Source: Polyangiaceae bacterium
GTDB lineage: Bacteria > Myxococcota_A > Polyangia > Polyangiales > Polyangiaceae
Reading direction: 5' to 3'
Assembly: GCA_033763455.1 (NCBI GenBank)
Contig: JANRKO010000062.1
Location: forward strand, 64,001 to 128,000
Length of the DNA stretch: 64,000 bases
This document shows positions 53,845-62,586 of this stretch, one piece after another; the first letter of the stretch is position 1; each line of letters starts with the position of its first letter. The notes beneath the pieces are model-generated. The model was not told where the DNA came from. It made no database searches and saw only the letters and a program-made list of their open reading frames with translations. The translations under genes were made by a program, and so were the position numbers.

Positions 53845-54112
53845 GTCGGAGTTCTTTTTTCGGTGGTTGGCCGTTGTGCACGAGCTGCTTTATGGAGCGC
53901 AGCGGCGAGCGTAGGCTAGGGCGGTCATGAGGCGTAGCCAAGGTGTGCTCGGCGGGTAGCTCGGCGCACGGCGCTAATTTTGCGCGCTCTTGCCGCGATG
54001 CGAACGTTTGCGCGGTGAGGCTCCGCGCCTTGCGTGGGCCGTAGATATTGTGTTCATGTGGAGGCCGGTTGAGAGCTGCCACGTGGTTTGCGGTTGTGTC
54101 GGTTGGTGGGGC

Positions 54113-54643
54113 ATGAGTCAGTGGCGAAAGAAGTGGGCCCTCGCGCTCGCTCTTGCCATTGGCATCGGCACCGGTATTGGGGCCTACACGTTTAGGTATG
54201 CGGAGGGGCTTTCCTATTTCAGCAAAGATCCTAGAGCGTGCGCCAATTGCCACATCATGCAGCAGTCCTATTCATCGTGGCAGATGGCGGGGCACCACAC
54301 CGTGGCCGCTTGCGCGGATTGCCACCTGCCGCATGAGACCATTGCCAAATACCTAGCGAAGGCAGACAACGGCTGGCGGCACTCCCGCGCTTTTACCACG
54401 GGGAACTTTCCGGAACCGCTAGAGATGATACCTAGAAGTCGCGCGATTCTGGAGAAGACCTGCCAAGGCTGCCACGAGGGTTTGGTGCAGGGAATGCTCA
54501 GCCAGGGCAACGAGGCGCCTGCGTGTTTGCACTGCCATAGCGATGTTGGCCACGGGGAACGCCTTGGCCTTGGGGGGCCTTTTGGTTCGACCGCTCTTGA
54601 AGCGCGGCAAATGCCTGCGCACGGCGTGAAACGGAAACCATGA
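54113..54643 (+). CDS. nrfH: Cytochrome c nitrite reductase small subunit (tetraheme)
   Basis: N-terminal TM helix and four heme motifs CANCHIM, CADCH, CQGCH and CLHCH; coupled to nrfA. Confidence 0.92.
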
Positions 54644-56115
54644 CGACGGACAATAAAAGCCCAAGCTCAATCGCTCCAACCAGGCGCTGGTTGCTACCTT
54701 TGGCGACCCTTTCGGCAGCGGTTGTGGCTGCGCTCGTGACCGCCCTGCTCACCAATATTTTCGAGCACAAGGTGGAGCAGCAACAGGCTTGGGTCCGCGT
54801 GGTAAACGTCACGGAAAACGATACTGACCCGCTAAAGTGGGCTCCCAATTGGCCCGCCGAATACGACGGCTACAAACGCACGGCTTTGCCTACCAAGACT
54901 CGTTTTGGGGGGCACGGTGGTAGCGAAGCCTTGCCAGAAGAAAAGCTCACGCGTGATCCTTGGCTCAAACGCATGTTTCTCGGCTACGCTTTCTCGCTGG
55001 ATTATCGCGATCGGCGAGGCCATGCCTACATGCTGAGCGACCAAGAAGCTTCGCTTCGGCTAACCAAACCACAATCCGGCTCCTGCTTACACTGCCACGC
55101 GTCTATCATGCCGCTCTATCGCGAGCTTGGTAATGGCGACGCCATGCTGGGCTTGGAGAGGAGCTCTGCGTTCTCTTACGAGGAGTTAAATCAGAAGTTG
55201 CGCGCTTCGGGCCACGCCCATCCGGTAAGCTGCGTTGATTGCCACGACCCGAAATCCATGTCGTTGCGGGTTACGCGGCCGGGCTTCTTGCGGGCAATTT
55301 CCGAGTTTGCGAATTCTGACGGCGAAGCTCAGGCCTTCCCTTCAATACAAGAGTGGCGCGTCGGAAAACGAGAAAAACCCTACGATCCGAACACCGACGC
55401 ACGCCGTTCGGAAATGCGCTCTTTTGTGTGCGGGCAGTGCCACGTTGAATATTACTGCGGCAAAAAAATGCCCCTCACATTCCCCTGGCAGAAAGGCTTA
55501 ACCGCTGACGCCATCGAAGCGGTGTGGAACGAGACGACATTCAAAGACGGTACGCCGTTTTCTGATTTCGAGCACGCTGAGACGGGAGCCAAAGTGCTGA
55601 AAGCGCAGCACCCTGAGTTCGAGCTCTGGAGCCAAGGTATCCACGCACAAAGCGGAGTTTCCTGTGCCGATTGCCATATGCCCTACCAGCGCGAAGGCGC
55701 CACCAAAACGAGCGACCACTGGGTGCGCAGCCCCCTGCTCAATGTGAACCGCGCCTGTCAAACTTGTCATCGCGCATCGGAGACGGAAATGCTTCGCCGT
55801 GTAGATGTGATCCAGCAGCGGACATATGAGCTTCTGCAACGCGGGGGTAGGGCAATGGTGGACCTTTTGGACGCGATCATGCTTGCGAAGAAGGCTGGCG
55901 TCCCTGAGGCGGAGCTTGCCCAAGCTCTGCTTCTTCAGCGCCAAGCCCAGTGGCGCCTCGATTACGTGGCTGCAGAAAATAGCATGGGTTTTCATGCCCC
56001 ACAGGAGGCCGCGCGCCTGTTGGCGGTGGCAATCGATCAGGCTCGCCAGGGGCAACTCAGTGCGCTCTCAGCTCGGGCCGCTCACGAACTTACCGGCAAA
56101 CCGGAGGTGCCGTAG
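54640..56115 (+). CDS. nrfA: Ammonia-forming cytochrome c nitrite reductase catalytic subunit (CXXCH-type)
   Basis: RGHAY; five heme motifs CLHCH, CVDCH, CGQCH, CADCH and [13 protein letters not shown] and ENSMGFHAP. Confidence 0.93.
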
Positions 56116-56150: not shown

Positions 56151-56304
56151 GCTAGGGCCCGTACGGAAGTCGGGTTCGACGTATAAGAAGGTGCGATGCT
56201 GCGTGTCGCAGTTCATCTAAAATCGCGAGGAATTTGTGGGTGTGTGAGAGTGCGAACTAACGCATCATCTGGTGGCGATCATGGCAAAGTGGCAACCAGT
56301 GAGC

Positions 56305-57531
56305 ATGAGAAACAGCTCCGCCCCGAGTGTTGTGATACTGATAAGTTTGTCAGGCTTTATGGTCGTGGCCTCTTGCAGCTCCGGGGGGCCGAACGTTCCT
56401 TATGCTCCGGACCTCAGTTCAGCGACGAGCGTCGGGGGGGCCGTTGCAGGTCTGCCGTTAGGTCCTGTGCAGAAGGTAACCGGGGGGGGTGCTGGCGTAA
56501 ACACGGTTCCAACTTCCACGCTTGGAACGGGCGGTGCTCCGAGGCAACCTTCCAGCGGCGGTGCGCCAGCCGTGAACCCGAATACCTCACAGACTGGTGG
56601 GAAATCCCCGGGGAGCGGTGGAACGAACCAAAATGTTGGCTCTGGCGGAGCGTCGAGTACCTGCGTGGATACCCCGCCTCCCAACGGTGACACCTGCGCG
56701 CATGCGTTGGAATACGGTTGGTGTGGCTTGCCATGGATGAATGGCGCGTGTGCTGCCTCCTGTGGCATCTGCACCGGAGGTGGTGACGCTGGTACGGGCG
56801 GCGCACCTACCACGGGCGGCTCCTCCAACTCCGGCAATCCGGAGCTGCCGCCTCCCATCGAAGGAGGTACGCCTGCGTGGGCCTCACGCTATTGGGATTG
56901 CTGTAAGCCTGCGTGTGGCTGGAGCGACAACGTTGCCAGCAAGACCGCGATGAAGAGTTGCAACTTCCAAAATCAGAGCATCGGTGCCACTAACGCGGCC
57001 AGTGCGTGTCAAGGCGGCGGGGCTTACATGTGCTGGGATGGCGTGCCTTGGGCCGCGAGCGACAAGTTGGCTTACGGTTATGCCGCCGCTTCGGGGAGCA
57101 ACTACAGCTGCGGACGCTGCTATCAGCTTCAGTTTACTGGAACGGGTAAACACGGAAACACCCCCGGCACCGCGTCTTTGAGCGGCAAGACCATGATCGT
57201 GCAGGTCGTGAACAATGGCGGCGTGGCCGCGGATCAATTCGATATCTTGATCCCTGGGGGCGGCGTTGGAGACTTCAACGCCTGCTCGGCTCAGTGGGGC
57301 ACCTCTGATTTGGGTGCCCAATACGGAGGCTTCCTGACCGCTTGCGGCGGACAGAGCTCATGCGTTGCCGCGAAGTGCCAGAGTGTCTTCGCCGGCAAAC
57401 CCGAACTCCTGGCGGGTTGCCAGTGGTTCCTCGGATGGTATGGGGCGGCCGACAATCCCAACCTCGTGTACAAGCAGGTCGCGTGCCCGAGCGCTATACT
57501 ACAGAGATCTGGATTGCCGGACCCTGGCTGA
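56305..57531 (+). CDS. GH45 endoglucanase, lipoprotein with Gly-rich linker and small Cys-rich module
   Basis: SRYWDCCKPACGW, CGRCYQLQFT, GKTMIVQ, FDILIPGGGVG and GCQW; lipobox-like VASC; start uncertain. Confidence 0.9.
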   Translation: MRNSSAPSVVILISLSGFMVVASCSSGGPNVPYAPDLSSATSVGGAVAGLPLGPVQKVTGGGAGVNTVPTSTLGTGGAPRQPSSGGAPAVNPNTSQTGGKSPGSGGTNQNVGSGGASSTCVDTPPPNGDTCAHALEYGWCGLPWMNGACAASCGICTGGGDAGTGGAPTTGGSSNSGNPELPPPIEGGTPAWASRYWDCCKPACGWSDNVASKTAMKSCNFQNQSIGATNAASACQGGGAYMCWDGVPWAASDKLAYGYAAASGSNYSCGRCYQLQFTGTGKHGNTPGTASLSGKTMIVQVVNNGGVAADQFDILIPGGGVGDFNACSAQWGTSDLGAQYGGFLTACGGQSSCVAAKCQSVFAGKPELLAGCQWFLGWYGAADNPNLVYKQVACPSAILQRSGLPDPG

Positions 57532-57556: not shown

Positions 57557-57736
57557 TTATTGGAAAATGGAGGGCTGCGGCTCTGGCGCAGGTGCCGGAG
57601 CGGGCTCTTCGCCTTTCTTCTTTTTCTTGCCGCCGTCGCAAAGGGTATCCGCGACTGGGGAAGGGGTTGCGGCTTGAGCCAAACCGGAGATCGAAAGCAT
57701 AAGGGCGCTGAGGCCGAGGACAGAGAGTTTCTTCAT
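57557..57736 (-). CDS. Small secreted protein, 59 aa (below ORF-track cutoff)
   Basis: Hand translation MKKLSVLGLSALMLSISGLAQAATPSPVADTLCDGGKKKKKGEEPAPAPAPEPQPSIFQ*. It has a classic Sec signal ending AQA, and TTGACA lies at 57775-57770 upstream on the minus strand. Confidence 0.7.
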   Translation of the reverse strand: MKKLSVLGLSALMLSISGLAQAATPSPVADTLCDGGKKKKKGEEPAPAPAPEPQPSIFQ

Positions 57737-57950: not shown

Positions 57951-59855
57951 ATGAGCAGCCCCTCAGTCGCAGTACGAGGTCGAGGCCGCCGGCGTTCCAA
58001 GGCGCTCGGGCCTGTGCAAGATTACGCAGCACACGTTGAGCCAGATTGGTGGCGCCACGTCTTTGGTGCTTTGTACCTCAAGACGGATGGAGATGTTGTC
58101 GACGACGCCGCAATCACGCGTCGCGAAGTGGATGCGTTGCTTGGTATCGTCGACCTTTCACCGACAGATCGAGTGCTTGATCTATGTTGTGGGCAAGGGC
58201 GCCACACACTTGAGTTAGCGCGTCGTGGGTTCGTTGGAGTGGAGGGCGTTGATCAATCGCGTTACCTCTTACGCCGAGCTCGCGAAACGGCCCGCAGTGA
58301 GGGGCTAGTGGTGCGCTTTCGTGAGGGTGATGCGCGAGAGGTGGGGAGCCTGCCCGGGGGACTCGATGCCGTGCTCATTATGGGCAACAGCTTCGGCTAC
58401 TTCGATGCGGCTGAGGACGATTTGCGTGTGCTTGGCGGGGTGCGCAGCATCTTGAAGCCTGGCGGGAAGCTTTTCCTTGATATTACCGACGGAGAGTGGC
58501 TGCGCGAGGCATTTGAGCCGCGATCGTGGGAGTGGATCGACGCGAGCATGTTTGTATGCCGGGAGCGTTGGCTGTCGCCCGACGGTCGCATGGTATCGCG
58601 CGAGGTGATCACCGATACCGGCAAAGGCGTCATCAAGGATCAATTTTACGCGGAGCGCCTGTACACGAGAGCAGAGCTAGCAGCGCTCCTGGCGCAGGCC
58701 GGTTTCGTCGATTTTACGGTCCATCAAGAATTCGCGGGCAGCTCGGAGCGCAACCAAGATCTCGGGATGATGGCGCACCGCTTGTTCATTACGGCGATTG
58801 CAGGTGAGGTGCAGGCTCCGCGGCAAGCAGTTCCGCGTGAGCTTGTGGTGGTGCTCGGAGATCCGGGAAAGCCTGATCCTGTCAAGCCCGATGGTGCCTT
58901 CGGCGGGGACGATCTGGATGCCATCGGACGCATGAAGGCCGCTCTTGAGCGGCCCGGCCGGCGGGTGCGCTACCTCTCCAACCACGACGCTCTCCTCGAT
59001 CAGCTGAAGCAACTCGCTGGTGGCTCTGCGTTAGTGGTCAACCTGTGCGACGAAGGCTATCGAAACCTACCGTTTTGCGAGCTCCACGTGCCGGCTTTGC
59101 TGGAAGCACTCGATCTTCGCTACACGGGCGCCGGCCCCCAGTGTTTGGCCCGGTGTTTCGACAAAGGGCTCGTGCGTGGCCTCGCGCGCGACCTTGGCAT
59201 TCCGGTAGCCTCCGCAACGCTAATCGGCCAAAGTGATCCCATCCCAGCCTTCACCACCCCGGTGATCGTAAAGCCCAATCACGGCGACGGCAGCTTCGCG
59301 ATCGATGAGAAATCAGTGGCGTTCAATGCCCAAGAGCTTGCTGCTGCAGTCGCCAACGTTCGCCGCCTTGCCGGGGCTAACGCGTTGATACTCGTTGAGG
59401 AGCTGCTCACCGGGGCCGAGCTCGGAGTTGGAATTTTGGGCAATCCCCCAGGGCCCCACCAGGTGTTGCCCATCATTCAAGAGGATTATTCGAGCTTGCC
59501 ACCCGGGTTGCCCCAGATTTGCGGGTATCCCTCCAAGTGGGACCCTTCCTCGCCGTATTGGAACCTGCGTTCGATCCCGGCGGTGCTTCCCGAAGAAACA
59601 GCGCGCTTGATCACTGACTTTAGTGTGCGGCTTTTTGAGCGCCTGGAGTGTCGCGACTACGCGCGCTTCGACTGGCGGCTCGATACAAATGGGCGTCCGC
59701 ATCTTCTAGAGGTGAATCCGAATCCGGGCTGGTGCTGGGATGGGCACCTGGCCAAGATGGCGGCCCTTGCGGGGATGTCGTACCCCGAGCTGCTCGACGC
59801 GGTACTTCAGGCCGCCGAAGAGCGCCTGAAGGTCGAAGTTCGCGGTGCTGCGTGA
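57951..59855 (+). CDS. Class I methyltransferase fused to a D-Ala-D-Ala-ligase-like ATP-grasp domain
   Basis: N-terminal VLDLCCGQGRH, GDAR and GNSFGYF; C-terminal NLCDEG, YTGAG...DK, VKPNHGDGS, RDYARFDWR and LEVNPNPG. Confidence 0.88.
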   Translation: MSSPSVAVRGRGRRRSKALGPVQDYAAHVEPDWWRHVFGALYLKTDGDVVDDAAITRREVDALLGIVDLSPTDRVLDLCCGQGRHTLELARRGFVGVEGVDQSRYLLRRARETARSEGLVVRFREGDAREVGSLPGGLDAVLIMGNSFGYFDAAEDDLRVLGGVRSILKPGGKLFLDITDGEWLREAFEPRSWEWIDASMFVCRERWLSPDGRMVSREVITDTGKGVIKDQFYAERLYTRAELAALLAQAGFVDFTVHQEFAGSSERNQDLGMMAHRLFITAIAGEVQAPRQAVPRELVVVLGDPGKPDPVKPDGAFGGDDLDAIGRMKAALERPGRRVRYLSNHDALLDQLKQLAGGSALVVNLCDEGYRNLPFCELHVPALLEALDLRYTGAGPQCLARCFDKGLVRGLARDLGIPVASATLIGQSDPIPAFTTPVIVKPNHGDGSFAIDEKSVAFNAQELAAAVANVRRLAGANALILVEELLTGAELGVGILGNPPGPHQVLPIIQEDYSSLPPGLPQICGYPSKWDPSSPYWNLRSIPAVLPEETARLITDFSVRLFERLECRDYARFDWRLDTNGRPHLLEVNPNPGWCWDGHLAKMAALAGMSYPELLDAVLQAAEERLKVEVRGAA

Positions 59856-60226
59856 TCGCTATTGGCCGAGGGATCCATGGGCGCGGGGTGTTTGCGCAAC
59901 GCCCGTTTGTAGCCGGTGAACTGATCGAACGCGCCCCGGTGCTCGTGATTCCGGCAGCCGAGATCGAGTGGCTGGATCGCACGATGCTCTACGATTATTA
60001 CTTCGCTTGGGGCCAAGATCCGGAAAACGCGGCGATAGCTATGGGCTTAGGCTCGTTCTACAACCACGCGGTGCAGCCCAATGCCGAACACGTTTGCCAC
60101 ATCAGTGAGCTTTCAATCGACTTTATCGCACTTGTGGATATCGCCGCTGGCGAGGAGATCACCATTCACTACAACGCGTCGCCGGGCGATGCCTCGCCGG
60201 TATGGTTCGAGGTACCCCGTCCATGA
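59852..60226 (+). CDS. SET domain protein
   Basis: HGRGVFA, FYNHAVQPNA and DIAAGEEITIHY; GTGA overlap with the upstream gene. Confidence 0.9.
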   Translation: MIAIGRGIHGRGVFAQRPFVAGELIERAPVLVIPAAEIEWLDRTMLYDYYFAWGQDPENAAIAMGLGSFYNHAVQPNAEHVCHISELSIDFIALVDIAAGEEITIHYNASPGDASPVWFEVPRP

Positions 60227-61215
60227 GGCTCACCGTTCTGCTTGGTGACAGGGAACGCGCAGCAGCTGTGGTGCCGGGAATGTCGCTCGGCGAGGTCGAC
60301 AGAGTGAGCTTTGAGGCACTCGATGCCGCTTTGGCTGATTTGCCCTACGCTGTTACCACGATCGCTAGCCACGCACATTTGATTGACGATCTGCGCGCGC
60401 TTGTGGGTCATACTGATTTGGTCCTCAACCTTTGCGATGAGGGCTACCGCAACGATCTTCGGCTGGAGCTCCACGTGCCCGCGCTCTTAGAAATGTTGGA
60501 GCTGCCGTACACCGGGGGCGCACCGCGTTGCCTTGCGTATTGCTACGACAAATCGCTCGTACGCGGCATTGCCCAGGAGTTAGGCGTTCCGGTCGCCCGA
60601 GGCGTGCTTCATGCTCCCGGCGCGCCCATCGGTGAGCCTTCCTTCGGTTTCCCGGCCATCGTGAAACCAAACTTTGGGGACGGCAGCTTCGGCATCACCA
60701 CTCGCAGTGTGGCCCGCGACGCCGCGGAATTCACGCGCGCGATTCTGGAGCTGCGGGAGCTCTATCGCGGCGCGATCCTTGTGGAGGAATACCTGCCCGG
60801 GCAGGATGTGGATGTCGGTGCTGTGGGCAACACGGGGGCTTGGACGATCTTCCCGCTCTCTACCGTCGACTATTCAAACGTTGCTCCCGGGGTTCCCCAC
60901 ATTGCGAGTCACGAATTCAAGTGGGAAGAGGTGTCGCCGTACGAAACGACGACGATTGGACCGGCCACGCTACCCGCTGAGGTTGAGGCCGGGATCTCGG
61001 CCTGGTCGATTCAATTGCTCGATCGTCTTGAATGTCGCGATTACGCGCGCGTCGATTGGCGGCTCGCCGCCGACGGTTCACCGCGGCTCCTCGAAGTCAA
61101 TCCCAACACCGGTTGGGGAGCGGCGGGCCGCCTGGCAGACATGGCGGCCCTCGCGGGGCTTTCGTATAGAGACCTGCTTCGCACGATTATCGAAGCAGCA
61201 CTCGCGCGGGGTTGA
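60223..61215 (+). CDS. D-Ala-D-Ala-ligase-like ATP-grasp enzyme
   Basis: NLCDEGYRN, YTGG...DK, VKPNFGDGSFGI, VEEYLPG, RDYARVDWR and LEVNPNTG; ATGA overlap. Confidence 0.88.
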   Translation: MRLTVLLGDRERAAAVVPGMSLGEVDRVSFEALDAALADLPYAVTTIASHAHLIDDLRALVGHTDLVLNLCDEGYRNDLRLELHVPALLEMLELPYTGGAPRCLAYCYDKSLVRGIAQELGVPVARGVLHAPGAPIGEPSFGFPAIVKPNFGDGSFGITTRSVARDAAEFTRAILELRELYRGAILVEEYLPGQDVDVGAVGNTGAWTIFPLSTVDYSNVAPGVPHIASHEFKWEEVSPYETTTIGPATLPAEVEAGISAWSIQLLDRLECRDYARVDWRLAADGSPRLLEVNPNTGWGAAGRLADMAALAGLSYRDLLRTIIEAALARG

Positions 61216-61269: not shown

Positions 61270-62586
61270 CTACTTGGCAACCTTTTTCACGGAGTGTTCG
61301 CCCTGCGACGTGTAATAAACAGCGCTCGCATCGAGCGCGATGCCGGCGAGATCTACCTCGCCGGTCGCAAGCGCAACGGGAAGTGAGGCGCCCTTCTGTA
61401 GAGCCATTACCTTGCCGGAACGGTTGACCCAGTAAATACCCGATGCGTCGACAGCGAGATCTGCGGGCTCGGATGGGTCGATAGCTAGAAGTTGCGGAGT
61501 GCCGCCTGCAAGCGGAACCGTGGATACTTCGCCTGTGGCCGAATCCACCCAGTAGAGCGAATTGTTGAATAAACGGAGACCGACGGGTCGAACCAAGCCA
61601 CCCACCAAAATGCTGGAGGAGCCCGGTGCCGAGACTTTGTAAATGCCCTTTGCGGCACTGAAATAGACGACACCATCTTTTGCGATGACGTCGAGTGGGC
61701 GATCGATTTTCTCAGCGAGCTTCTGCTGGCTTGTTCCGTCGAGTTTCACGGACATCACGGCGCCTTCAAGTGCACCGCTTGCACCCTCGGCGGCCCAGTA
61801 AATCGTGCCGCCTTCGACAGCGATACCTCGGGCACCATCGACGCCACCACTGATATACCGCGCAGACGTGAGGAGTGCCTTATCCCTCACCCAAGCCCCC
61901 TTGGTACCGCCGTCGTTGCAGGTCCAATAGATGCTGGTGTCGTCCGCCGTGATGCCCCATGTGTTGCCGGGGTAGCCGGCCACTTCCATTGGCATCGCAC
62001 CCCCGGGCGCAGCTAGCTGGCGGACTGCGGGCGTTTGGTAGGCTCCGTTGGAGGTCCAATACACGAGGCCACCTGTGACCATTAGGTGCTTGGGCTGGTC
62101 CTGGCCGGCAGCGAGCAAGATAGAGCCGCACGCGCCAGAATTGCACGAGGCGCCCAAGCAATCGCGGCCGCAGGCTCCACAGTTCTTCGCATCGACCTGC
62201 AAATCTATCTCGCAACCGTCACTTCCGGTCTGGTTACAGTCTGCAAACGAGCCCCTGCATTGGATCCCGCACTCTCCCGCTTCGCAGACGGGAAAGCTCG
62301 CCGGGCCCGAGCCGCACACTTTTGCGGTGCTGCCACAGGCGCGCGGATCGCCGAAACGGCTGGGGGTACTCATGAACCCTGCCGTGCCGGCCTGTGCGTT
62401 GCCGTGAAGCTTCGCCCCACCAAAAGAACCCGCACCTCCGCTGCCAGCCCCTGAACCGATGCCCGTGCCCGCGGCGGCACCCGCACCCATACTTTCAACC
62501 GCGGCCGTGGGTGCACAGCTTGCTGCTCCTGTCGCCGCACACAGAACTACGCTCAGAAAACGTGATGGCACGCTTAGGCCCTCCAT
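61270..62586 (-). CDS. Hypothetical lipoprotein with Cys-rich (Stig1-like) repeat and beta-propeller
   Basis: AASC lipobox-like site, Gly linker, DCN...DGCE...KNCGACGRDC, and repeated IA-D...YW(T/V) blades. Confidence 0.75.
   Translation of the reverse strand: MEGLSVPSRFLSVVLCAATGAASCAPTAAVESMGAGAAAGTGIGSGAGSGGAGSFGGAKLHGNAQAGTAGFMSTPSRFGDPRACGSTAKVCGSGPASFPVCEAGECGIQCRGSFADCNQTGSDGCEIDLQVDAKNCGACGRDCLGASCNSGACGSILLAAGQDQPKHLMVTGGLVYWTSNGAYQTPAVRQLAAPGGAMPMEVAGYPGNTWGITADDTSIYWTCNDGGTKGAWVRDKALLTSARYISGGVDGARGIAVEGGTIYWAAEGASGALEGAVMSVKLDGTSQQKLAEKIDRPLDVIAKDGVVYFSAAKGIYKVSAPGSSSILVGGLVRPVGLRLFNNSLYWVDSATGEVSTVPLAGGTPQLLAIDPSEPADLAVDASGIYWVNRSGKVMALQKGASLPVALATGEVDLAGIALDASAVYYTSQGEHSVKKVAK

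What the first reader, a model, noticed from the sequence alone, without database searches (positions are those of the whole stretch)
57951..61215. Coupled methyltransferase-ATP-grasp / SET / ATP-grasp operon: candidate undescribed methylated-peptide or protein-modification system
Seen: three genes joined by GTGA and ATGA overlaps (59852-59855, 60223-60226). Together they encode two unrelated SAM methyltransferase folds (Rossmann class I and SET) and two Ddl-like ATP-grasp domains. Both ligases lack the N-terminal GGxSxE motif of housekeeping D-Ala-D-Ala ligases, and no mur/fts genes are nearby. Established: Ddl-like ATP-grasp enzymes form amide bonds, and SET domains N-methylate lysine or other amines. 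Inference: the operon makes a non-ribosomal N-methylated di/tripeptide or osmolyte, or ligates and methylates a protein substrate. I know of no characterised pathway with this architecture.
Basis: partly seen in the sequence, partly recalled or inferred. Interest (0 to 1): 0.8.

Follow-up and report, generated by a model that had tools for sequence, protein, structure and literature searches.

The report
Methyltransferase-ligase operon with SET gene
Three overlapping genes encode two related amide-bond ligases and two unrelated methyl-adding enzymes that probably build a small N-methylated compound nobody has yet identified, and they are not cell-wall enzymes.

Summary
Three overlapping + strand genes encode a class I methyltransferase fused to a Ddl-like ATP-grasp ligase (57951-59855), a minimal SET protein (59852-60226) and a solo Ddl-like ligase (60223-61215). 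Neither ligase is a cell-wall Ddl: both score about 100 bits against cut-offs of 243 or more, both lack GGxSxE, and the genome has two genuine Ddl genes elsewhere. The two ligases are paralogues (48% identity) that differ in the acceptor loops.

The fusion belongs to a large, uncharacterised family found in bacteria, archaea and some fungi. This scan has met it before on other DNA. It normally stands alone: 0 of 80 related loci carry a SET gene, and none of 40 relatives has the trio.

From the SET side the link is real but occurs in a minority. Nine of 80 SET loci carry a ligase of this kind, in several arrangements and at least three fusion clades. One protein joins ligase and SET. One operon adds an AblA-like aminomutase and a GNAT.

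My best reading (about 0.5) is a cytoplasmic pathway that makes an N-methylated aminoacyl-amide or dipeptide, possibly from lysine or a diamine. I found no published characterisation. The product is unknown.

The parts
57951..59855 (+). P0001, 634 aa. An NmbA-like class I SAM N-methyltransferase (about residues 35-265) is fused to a Ddl-fold ATP-grasp ligase (about residues 298-625).
   Evidence: Pfam. PDB sequence search: 9ri2 (NmbA) E 3.3e-25 over residues 35-265, and VanA (1e4e) E 3.5e-21. It belongs to a family of more than 5500 proteins. The motif NPNPGWCWDGH is present in 119 of 119 listed members.
59852..60226 (+). P0002, 124 aa, a minimal SET-domain methyltransferase. Its GTG start overlaps the stop codon of P0001 (GTGA).
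   Evidence: Pfam SET, 57.6 bits. Closest solved structures are vSET 1n3j (E 3.4e-11) and 5h6z. The GxG, NH and Y motifs are invariant in 24 homologues.
60223..61215 (+). P0003, 330 aa, a solo Ddl-fold ATP-grasp ligase and paralogue of the C-terminal half of P0001. Its ATG overlaps the SET stop codon (ATGA). An alternative ATG lies at 60202.
   Evidence: Pfam. 48% identity to P0001 residues 298-625. AlphaFold2 model with pLDDT 88.5. Best Foldseek matches are all Ddl, with TM about 0.75. The RVD and EVN catalytic motifs are kept, but the acceptor loops differ from those of the fusions.

Best explanation
This is a self-contained, horizontally acquired three-gene operon for a cytoplasmic small-molecule pathway.

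Proposed mechanism (all steps inferred):
1. The ATP-grasp domain of P0001 activates a carboxylate as an acyl phosphate and joins it to an amine.
2. The fused NmbA-like methyltransferase N-methylates a free amine of that aminoacyl-amide or dipeptide.
3. The paralogous ligase P0003 has different acceptor loops. It adds a second building block or makes a variant amide.
4. The SET enzyme methylates a lysine-like terminal amine of the product, for example the side chain of lysine, beta-lysine, ornithine or an amide-linked diamine.

The likely product class is a small N-methylated, possibly betaine-like, amide that serves as a compatible solute or protective metabolite.

Shown here: the domain content, intact catalytic motifs, non-membership of Ddl, the paralogy of the two ligases, and a recurrent SET-ligase linkage. 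Inferred: the substrates, the order of steps and the physiological role.
For: 1. Both ligases keep the ATP-grasp core. RxD and ExN align to VanA R290/D292 and E305/N307 (the VanA residue numbers are counted on that alignment). The P0003 model has the Ddl fold.
2. Both lack what defines Ddl. They score 103 and 98 bits against a cut-off of 243. GGxSxE is absent, and absent in 0 of 119 listed fusions. Two genuine Ddl genes exist elsewhere in the genome, at 357.7 and 284.8 bits.
3. The methyltransferase domain matches NmbA over almost its whole length. NmbA N-methylates the cysteine amine of the small molecule bacillithiol and has a narrow substrate basket (PMC12719100, abstract and section 2.1 read).
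4. The acceptor-side loops are invariant in fusions (NPNPGWCWDGH in 119 of 119) but differ in P0003. This fits two different ligation steps.
5. SET-ligase linkage. Nine of 80 metagenomic SET loci carry a Ddl-like ligase:
   - A SET gene directly precedes the fusion in L111, L112 and L156.
   - SET and fusion are divergent in L122, L155 and L169.
   - SET is followed by a solo ligase in L114.
   - Ligase, GNAT and SET lie in a row in L116.
   - L160 is described under point 7.
   The ligase is the top specific neighbour cluster of this SET clade. The SET-linked fusions fall in at least three clades (quick tree).
6. Domain-fusion network in the same ligase family:
   - P0296 joins a fusion-type ligase to a SET domain.
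   - P0375, P0412 and P0421 join a ligase to a GNAT.
   - SET-GNAT fusions also exist.
   All these partners are enzymes that cap amines.
7. L160 places a SET of the same clade in a tight operon with an AblA-like amino-acid 2,3-aminomutase (498.8 bits, just under the 525.4 cut-off), two ligases, a GNAT and a channel. This points to lysine or beta-lysine chemistry.
8. A SET enzyme, Rubisco LSMT, is reported to methylate free lysine as a side reaction (PMC8085414 citing Trievel 2003; passages read).
9. I saw no obvious signal peptide or membrane segment in the three translations (read by eye).
Against: - No substrate or product is shown.
- The fusion stands alone in 80 of 80 related genome loci and has no conserved neighbour. 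SET and the second ligase are therefore dispensable for its core role.
- Most SET loci of this clade (71 of 80, many on short contigs) show no ligase.
- All characterised SET enzymes I know of are protein lysine methyltransferases (recalled).
- The L160 ligases are only 25-30% identical to P0003, and its methyltransferase is a different class I type. That operon is therefore an indirect clue.
- The fusion is 52-59% identical between bacteria and archaea in most listed relatives. This would also fit a conserved macromolecular target.
Confidence: 0.5

Rival explanations
1. This is a protein or peptide modification system. The ATP-grasp ligases add amino acids to carboxylates of a protein, as RimK and tubulin-tyrosine-ligase-type enzymes do. 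The SET and class I enzymes methylate lysines or the N-terminus of the same target.
For: - Known SET enzymes act on protein lysines (recalled).
- The closest solved SET relatives are histone methyltransferases.
- Eukaryotic TTLL12 combines SET-like and ATP-grasp (TTL) domains (PMC3520985, search listing and abstract only).
- GNAT partners hit RimI-type models weakly, at 43-50 bits and below the cut-off.
- SET and fusion genes are mostly unlinked, as expected if each can act alone on a shared target.
- The fusion is highly conserved across domains of life.
Against: - The ligases have the closed Ddl fold, not the RimK or TTL type. The RimK and TTL Pfam models do not hit P0001 or P0003, and the best structural matches are all Ddl.
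- The nearest characterised relative of the methyltransferase acts on a small molecule.
- No candidate substrate gene travels with the operon. The only small ORF nearby (57557-57736, minus strand) also occurs in two relatives that lack the trio.
Confidence: 0.22
2. The product is a low-molecular-weight thiol or a polyamine conjugate. The ligase joins cysteine or glutamate to an amine scaffold or polyamine, and the NmbA-like domain N-methylates it, by analogy with N-methyl-bacillithiol and glutathionylspermidine. This is a specific sub-case of the small-molecule reading.
For: - The methyltransferase resembles NmbA along its full length.
- The fusions have several invariant cysteines and an acidic FDDDD patch.
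- MtnA of methionine salvage lies beside the fusion in L111.
- Earlier scan notes suggested a polyamine-like substrate (unchecked).
- Ddl-like domains act in glutathione synthesis in GshF (recalled).
Against: There is no direct evidence. The paper's own network analysis treats outliers as likely to have other acceptors (PMC12719100, section 2.1). I did not search for bacillithiol pathway genes. The acidic patch is weak in P0001 and absent in P0003.
Confidence: 0.13
3. The genes are functionally unrelated neighbours. The SET gene and the extra ligase landed beside the fusion by chance and work on different targets.
For: The trio was found nowhere else with DNA in hand. 0 of 80 fusion loci have a SET gene, and no relative has the trio. 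The surrounding region is not syntenic in same-genus genomes.
Against: - The stop and start codons overlap by 4 bases at both junctions.
- Nine of 80 SET loci carry such a ligase, although the fusion is rare (0 of 40 relatives).
- The P0296 ligase-SET fusion exists.
- The closest fusion homologue (P0004, 68% identity) and a 67%-identical SET (P0127) each sit on a single ENA contig of the same length, 3269 bases. That they share one contig is inferred, not seen.
Confidence: 0.1
4. These are cell-wall D-Ala-D-Ala or Van-type depsipeptide ligases.
For: The best-scoring named families and structures are Ddl and VanA.
Against: - The scores are less than half of every curated cut-off.
- There is no GGxSxE, and the EVNTLPG acceptor loop is replaced.
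- Two genuine Ddl genes lie elsewhere in the genome.
- No vanH, vanX, mur or fts gene is nearby.
Confidence: 0.02

Closest known systems
D-alanine-D-alanine ligase / VanA family (Pfam Dala_Dala_lig_C, NCBIfam NF002378, TIGR01205)
   Same: It shares the three-domain ATP-grasp fold (TM about 0.75), the RxD and ExN catalytic and Mg-binding motifs, and therefore acyl-phosphate amide-forming chemistry.
   Different: Scores are about 100 bits against cut-offs of 243 or more. The N-terminal GGxSxE is absent and the acceptor loop differs. One copy is fused to a methyltransferase. It is not the genome's Ddl.
NmbA, bacillithiol N-methyltransferase (PDB 9ri2; PMC12719100)
   Same: It is the best solved relative of the methyltransferase domain, aligned over residues 35-265 against 18-246 of 266 and including the cap region. 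It is a class I enzyme that N-methylates the free amine of an amide-linked amino acid in a small molecule.
   Different: The overall E-value is only 3.3e-25. Here the domain is fused to a ligase. I did not check for bacillithiol pathway genes. The family occurs in archaea, where the paper found no bacillithiol pathway.
Minimal viral/fungal SET enzymes (vSET of PBCV-1, PDB 1n3j; SET domain-containing protein 7, PDB 5h6z)
   Same: The size is similar (124 aa against 119), and the GxG, NH and C-terminal Tyr motifs align.
   Different: It has a clade-specific C-terminal PVWF motif. It is a bacterial cytoplasmic protein in an operon with ligases, and its substrate is unknown.
Ngg, the GNAT plus ATP-grasp enzyme of N-acetylglutaminylglutamine amide synthesis (recalled; my search found no paper describing it)
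   Same: The logic is the same: an amide ligase joined to an amine-capping enzyme that makes a small osmolyte. Ligase-GNAT fusions exist in this ligase family.
   Different: I ran no sequence comparison.
TTLL12, eukaryotic SET-like plus tubulin-tyrosine-ligase-like protein (PMC3520985, abstract only)
   Same: It combines a SET-like domain with an ATP-grasp amino-acid ligase domain.
   Different: It is eukaryotic, the ligase is of the TTL type, its context is protein substrates, and per its abstract it was inactive in both assays.

Membership tests
D-Ala-D-Ala ligase / Van ligases | Score at or above the curated NCBIfam cut-off (NF002378 243 bits; TIGR01205 245.65 bits) | tested here: not met
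   P0001 scores 103 and 94.1 bits, and P0003 98.4 and 93.5 bits. The genome's own Ddl genes score 357.7 and 284.8 bits.
D-Ala-D-Ala ligase / Van ligases | N-terminal GGxSxE motif of the first D-Ala site (motif recalled) | tested here: not met
   It is absent in P0001, in P0003 and in 119 of 119 listed fusions. It is present in both genuine Ddl genes of the genome.
D-Ala-D-Ala ligase / Van ligases | ATP-grasp catalytic RxD and ExN motifs and the Ddl fold | tested here: met
   Alignment to VanA; Foldseek top hits are all Ddl, with E about 1e-24.
D-Ala-D-Ala ligase / Van ligases | EVNTLPG acceptor loop with Ser/Leu binding the second D-Ala (residue roles recalled) | tested here: not met
   P0001 has EVNPNPGWCWDGH and P0003 has EVNPNTGWGAAGR. 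The genome's own Ddl genes have EVNTLPG.
SET-domain methyltransferases (PF00856) | Pfam score over the cut-off, with the SAM-binding GxG, NH and catalytic Tyr motifs | tested here: met
   57.6 bits against 22.4. The motifs align to vSET. G10, G12, N71, H72 and Y107 are invariant in 24 homologues.
SET-domain methyltransferases (PF00856) | Protein lysine as substrate | not testable with these tools
   This needs biochemistry. The genomic context points towards small-molecule enzymes.
NmbA-type N-methyltransferases | Full-length similarity including the cap domain | tested here: met
   E 3.3e-25, residues 35-265 against 18-246 of 266.
NmbA-type N-methyltransferases | Co-occurrence with the bacillithiol genes bshA, bshB and bshC | not tested
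   I did not search the genome for these genes.
Graspetide / RiPP ATP-grasp systems | Adjacent precursor peptide gene that travels with the ligase | tested here: not met
   The only small ORF nearby (57557-57736, minus strand) is conserved in two same-genus genomes that lack the trio. No neighbour is conserved around the fusions.
Mycosporine-like amino acid pathway (MysD, a Ddl-like ligase) | Neighbouring sugar-phosphate cyclase and O-methyltransferase genes (recalled) | tested here: not met
   None of the seven neighbouring genes scanned between 51756 and 63979 is of these kinds.

The most novel reading that the evidence does not exclude
The SET protein is a dedicated small-molecule methyltransferase, which would be the first of its kind. 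It trimethylates the terminal amine of a lysine-, beta-lysine- or diamine-containing amide made by the two ATP-grasp ligases. Together with the fused N-methyltransferase it yields a new betaine-like compatible solute. A shuffled toolkit of Ddl-like ligases with SET, GNAT and class I methyltransferase caps would then make a family of such metabolites across bacteria and archaea.
Probability: 0.25. Interest if true: 0.8.

Novelty: new variant of a known kind. Interest (0 to 1): 0.55.

Why it matters
The fused methyltransferase-ligase is one of the more widespread enzymes without a known reaction. It has thousands of sequences in bacteria, archaea and some fungi, so identifying its product would annotate many genomes at once.

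This operon and the related loci found here give a handle that the stand-alone gene lacks. They link the ligase to SET, GNAT and an aminomutase, which narrows the likely substrates to lysine-like amines. If the SET enzyme acts on a metabolite, that would widen the known chemistry of a domain so far treated as a protein, mostly histone, methyltransferase. It would also bear on what free-living bacteria use SET proteins for.

Tried and rejected
- Complex prediction of SET with P0003 (collected) gave no verdict (score 0.00). It says nothing either way.
- The search for RNA evidence listed no RNA holder. Only low-depth DNA contigs could be laid.
- The 'longer' search with SET found 42 longer forms: tandem SET, SET with SAF and SET with GNAT. 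None was a SET-ligase fusion. The one ligase-SET fusion, P0296, came from the ligase side. It is a single sequence from one contig, and its SET is of another subtype, so it could be a gene-call artefact.
- The tree is only the quick version. Seven rows (L014, L017, L030, L032, L061, L073, L082) have branch lengths of 6.6 to 10. They are most likely wrong ORFs that my script cut by position.
- My crude longest-ORF gene caller mis-called strands in GC-rich loci. I replaced it with six-frame profile searches and Pfam scans on chosen frames.
- Synteny with same-genus genomes could not define an insertion site. The flanking genes lie on different contigs there.
- Iyer et al. 2009 on amidoligases (PMC3268129) is not held, so I could not check whether it mentions this neighbourhood.
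- Promoter and terminator scans gave nothing above chance.
Full report
**Observation.** The stated coordinates hold three + strand ORFs: 57951-59855 (634 aa, P0001), 59852-60226 (124 aa, P0002, GTG start) and 60223-61215 (330 aa, P0003). The sequence shows GTGA at 59852-59855 and ATGA at 60223-60226, so each start overlaps the preceding stop by four bases.

Pfam finds the following:
- P0001 has Methyltransf_25 (residues 75-172, E 7.6e-17) and Dala_Dala_lig_C (residues 433-619, E 1.5e-21).
- P0002 has SET (57.6 bits, cut-off 22.4).
- P0003 has Dala_Dala_lig_C (residues 140-324, E 1.4e-21).

The operon is bounded upstream by a 420-base gap after a GH45 gene and downstream by a convergent gene at 61270-62586. 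P0003 could alternatively start at the ATG at 60202. The gene junctions are not an assembly artefact. A 491-base contig of a run from a different study bridges 59852 with no differences, and contigs of two further runs of one study bridge 60223.

**Not cell-wall ligases.** Every Ddl or Van model of NCBIfam hits both ligases far below its cut-off, for example NF002378 at 103 and 98.4 bits against 243. The genome has two proteins that pass these cut-offs, on contigs C19 and C50 (357.7 and 284.8 bits). Both carry GGxSxE and EVNTLPG. P0001, P0003 and 119 of 119 listed fusion homologues lack GGxSxE.

The catalytic core is kept. In the alignment to VanA, RVD and EVN of P0003 match R290/D292 and E305/N307. 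An AlphaFold2 model of P0003 (pLDDT 88.5) finds only Ddl structures at the top (TM about 0.75). These are therefore competent acyl-phosphate-forming amide ligases with different substrate sites.

**The two ligases are paralogues.** P0003 is 48% identical to residues 298-625 of P0001 (E 8e-95). Fusions are invariant in NPNPGWCWDGH (119 of 119) and conserve ICGYEAKW..SPYW in the loop that corresponds to the Ddl omega loop. P0003 has NPNTGWGAAGR and IASHEFKWEEVSPYE there. The difference lies where Ddl binds its second substrate (residue roles recalled). I take this to mean that the two ligases join different partners.

**The fusion family.** P0001 has more than 5500 relatives among the candidates scored. 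The best 120 all carry both domains and are 54-68% identical. Source names span Thermotoga, Anaerolineae, Nitrospinae, Calditrichaeota, Planctomycetes, Asgard archaea and Methanophagales. The ESM Atlas adds clusters from chytrid and ascomycete fungi.

The fusion normally stands alone:
- In the 80 loci kept, no ORF matched SET, either with P0002 or with a SET profile (0 of 80).
- The largest neighbour cluster covers 11 of 80 loci.
- None of 40 relatives of this genome has the fusion. Only ATP-grasp hits of 32-35% identity appeared, in 4 genomes.
- 4 of the 40 relatives have a SET homologue, none in the same genus.
- The flanks are not syntenic in the three same-genus genomes.

The trio therefore looks like a horizontally acquired cassette. 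Earlier notes of this scan describe the same fusion on other DNA as uncharacterised. My results agree.

**The SET link.** I aligned 24 SET homologues and scanned metagenome contigs with the alignment. Of 562 relatives found, 80 loci were kept, and 27 of these are shorter than 3.1 kb. Nine of the 80 carry a Ddl-like ligase or the start of the fusion:

| Locus | Arrangement |
|---|---|
| L111, L112 | tandem-SET protein directly followed by the fusion |
| L156 | two SET ORFs, then the start of the fusion |
| L155, L169, L122 | fusion and SET divergent, 0.8-3 kb apart |
| L114 | SET, then the N-terminus of a solo ligase at the contig end |
| L116 | ligase end, then a GNAT, then SET |
| L160 | see below |

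The ligase cluster is the top specific neighbour of this SET clade. In a quick tree the SET-linked fusions form three supported groups. P0001 groups with P0004. L111 groups with L112. L122, L155 and L169 form a third group nested among unlinked fusions (see the caveats under Tried and rejected). Given how rare the fusion is (0 of 40 relatives), 6 fusions in 80 SET neighbourhoods is far above chance. This is a rough argument, not a formal test.

From the ligase side, a search of 1.84 billion representatives found 328 proteins at E up to 1e-30, including many solo forms of 340-370 aa. Other architectures appear in the same family:
- P0296: the tail of the methyltransferase, a fusion-type ligase and a SET domain with post-SET cysteines
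- ligase-GNAT fusions (P0375, P0412, P0421)
- tandem ligases

SET-GNAT fusions also exist. The closest fusion (P0004, 68% identity) and a 67%-identical SET (P0127) each lie on a single ENA contig of 3269 bases. That length would fit the whole trio, but I could not fetch the contig.

**Clues to the substrate.** The methyltransferase domain aligns to NmbA (9ri2) over nearly all of that protein (E 3.3e-25). NmbA N-methylates the free amine of the amide-linked cysteine of bacillithiol and has a narrow basket for that small molecule (PMC12719100, abstract and section 2.1 read).

L160 is a tight operon with these genes in order:
1. a class I methyltransferase
2. an amino-acid 2,3-aminomutase that is closest to AblA (498.8 bits, cut-off 525.4; glutamate 2,3-aminomutase comes second)
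3. a SET 53% identical to P0002
4. a Ddl-like ligase
5. a ligase-GNAT fusion
6. a bestrophin-type channel

AblA with a GNAT makes the osmolyte N-epsilon-acetyl-beta-lysine in methanogens (recalled; the papers listed deal with it). A SET enzyme, Rubisco LSMT, is reported to methylate free lysine as a side reaction (PMC8085414, passages read). These points suggest lysine-like amines, but the L160 ligases are only 25-30% identical to P0003.

**Mechanism proposed.** ATP-dependent amide formation by P0001 is followed by N-methylation by its fused domain. P0003 carries out a second or alternative ligation. SET methylates a lysine-like terminal amine. All of these steps are inferred.

The main rival is a protein-modification system. 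It fits the known SET substrates and the mostly unlinked distribution of the genes. It fits less well with the Ddl fold of the ligases and the NmbA-like methyltransferase. I put the small-molecule reading at about 0.5, or about 0.63 counting the thiol or polyamine sub-case that I list separately. The protein reading is at about 0.22, chance neighbours at about 0.1 and cell-wall Ddl at about 0.02.

**Literature.** Nine searches found no paper that describes this fusion, a SET-ligase operon or a SET enzyme dedicated to a metabolite. The library lacks most subscription journals. Iyer et al. 2009 on amidoligases could not be read, so a prior computational mention cannot be excluded.

**Verdict.** This is an uncharacterised variant built from known enzyme families, and its product is unknown.

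Noticed in passing
window 57557-57736 (- strand): A 59-aa ORF has a canonical signal peptide followed by a KKKKK run and a PAPAPAPEP stretch. It lies divergent from the operon. It is conserved at 63% identity in 2 of 3 same-genus genomes that lack the trio, in other contexts. It is therefore a real small gene and not part of the system.
   Followed up: partly
window 53990-56115 (+): A NrfH (154.6 bits, over the cut-off) and NrfA-like cytochrome c552 pair, an ammonia-forming nitrite reductase operon.
   Followed up: no
window 56272-57531 (+): A glycosyl hydrolase family 45 domain (E 1.6e-37) follows a long Gly/Ser/Thr-rich N-terminal region with a signal-like start. GH45 is uncommon in bacteria (recalled). 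It is conserved at about 72% DNA identity in same-genus genomes.
   Followed up: no
L160:1-7044: A metagenomic operon: class I methyltransferase, AblA-like 2,3-aminomutase, SET, Ddl-like ligase, ligase-GNAT fusion and bestrophin channel. It is a candidate pathway for a modified beta-amino-acid metabolite.
   Followed up: partly
P0296 (590 aa), P0287 (1210 aa): P0296 joins a fusion-type ligase to a SET domain with post-SET cysteines. It is a single ENA sequence on a 33919-base contig, the same length as the contig that holds the minimal SET P0146. P0287 joins leucine-rich repeats to the same ligase type.
   Followed up: partly
L111:166-1074, L112:177-1022: Proteins with two SET stretches (302 and 281 aa) sit directly upstream of methyltransferase-ligase fusions. 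Tandem-SET forms of 255-265 aa are also common in the 'longer' search.
   Followed up: no
L155:1093-2004 (-): A NifB-like radical SAM protein (372 bits, over the cut-off of 343.65) lies directly next to a methyltransferase-ligase fusion.
   Followed up: no
ESM Atlas cluster, rank 19: A separate cluster of 375 members (559 aa, Thermodesulfobacteriota) joins a PrmA/MTS-type methyltransferase to a Ddl-like ligase. This is another methyltransferase type fused to this kind of ligase.
   Followed up: no
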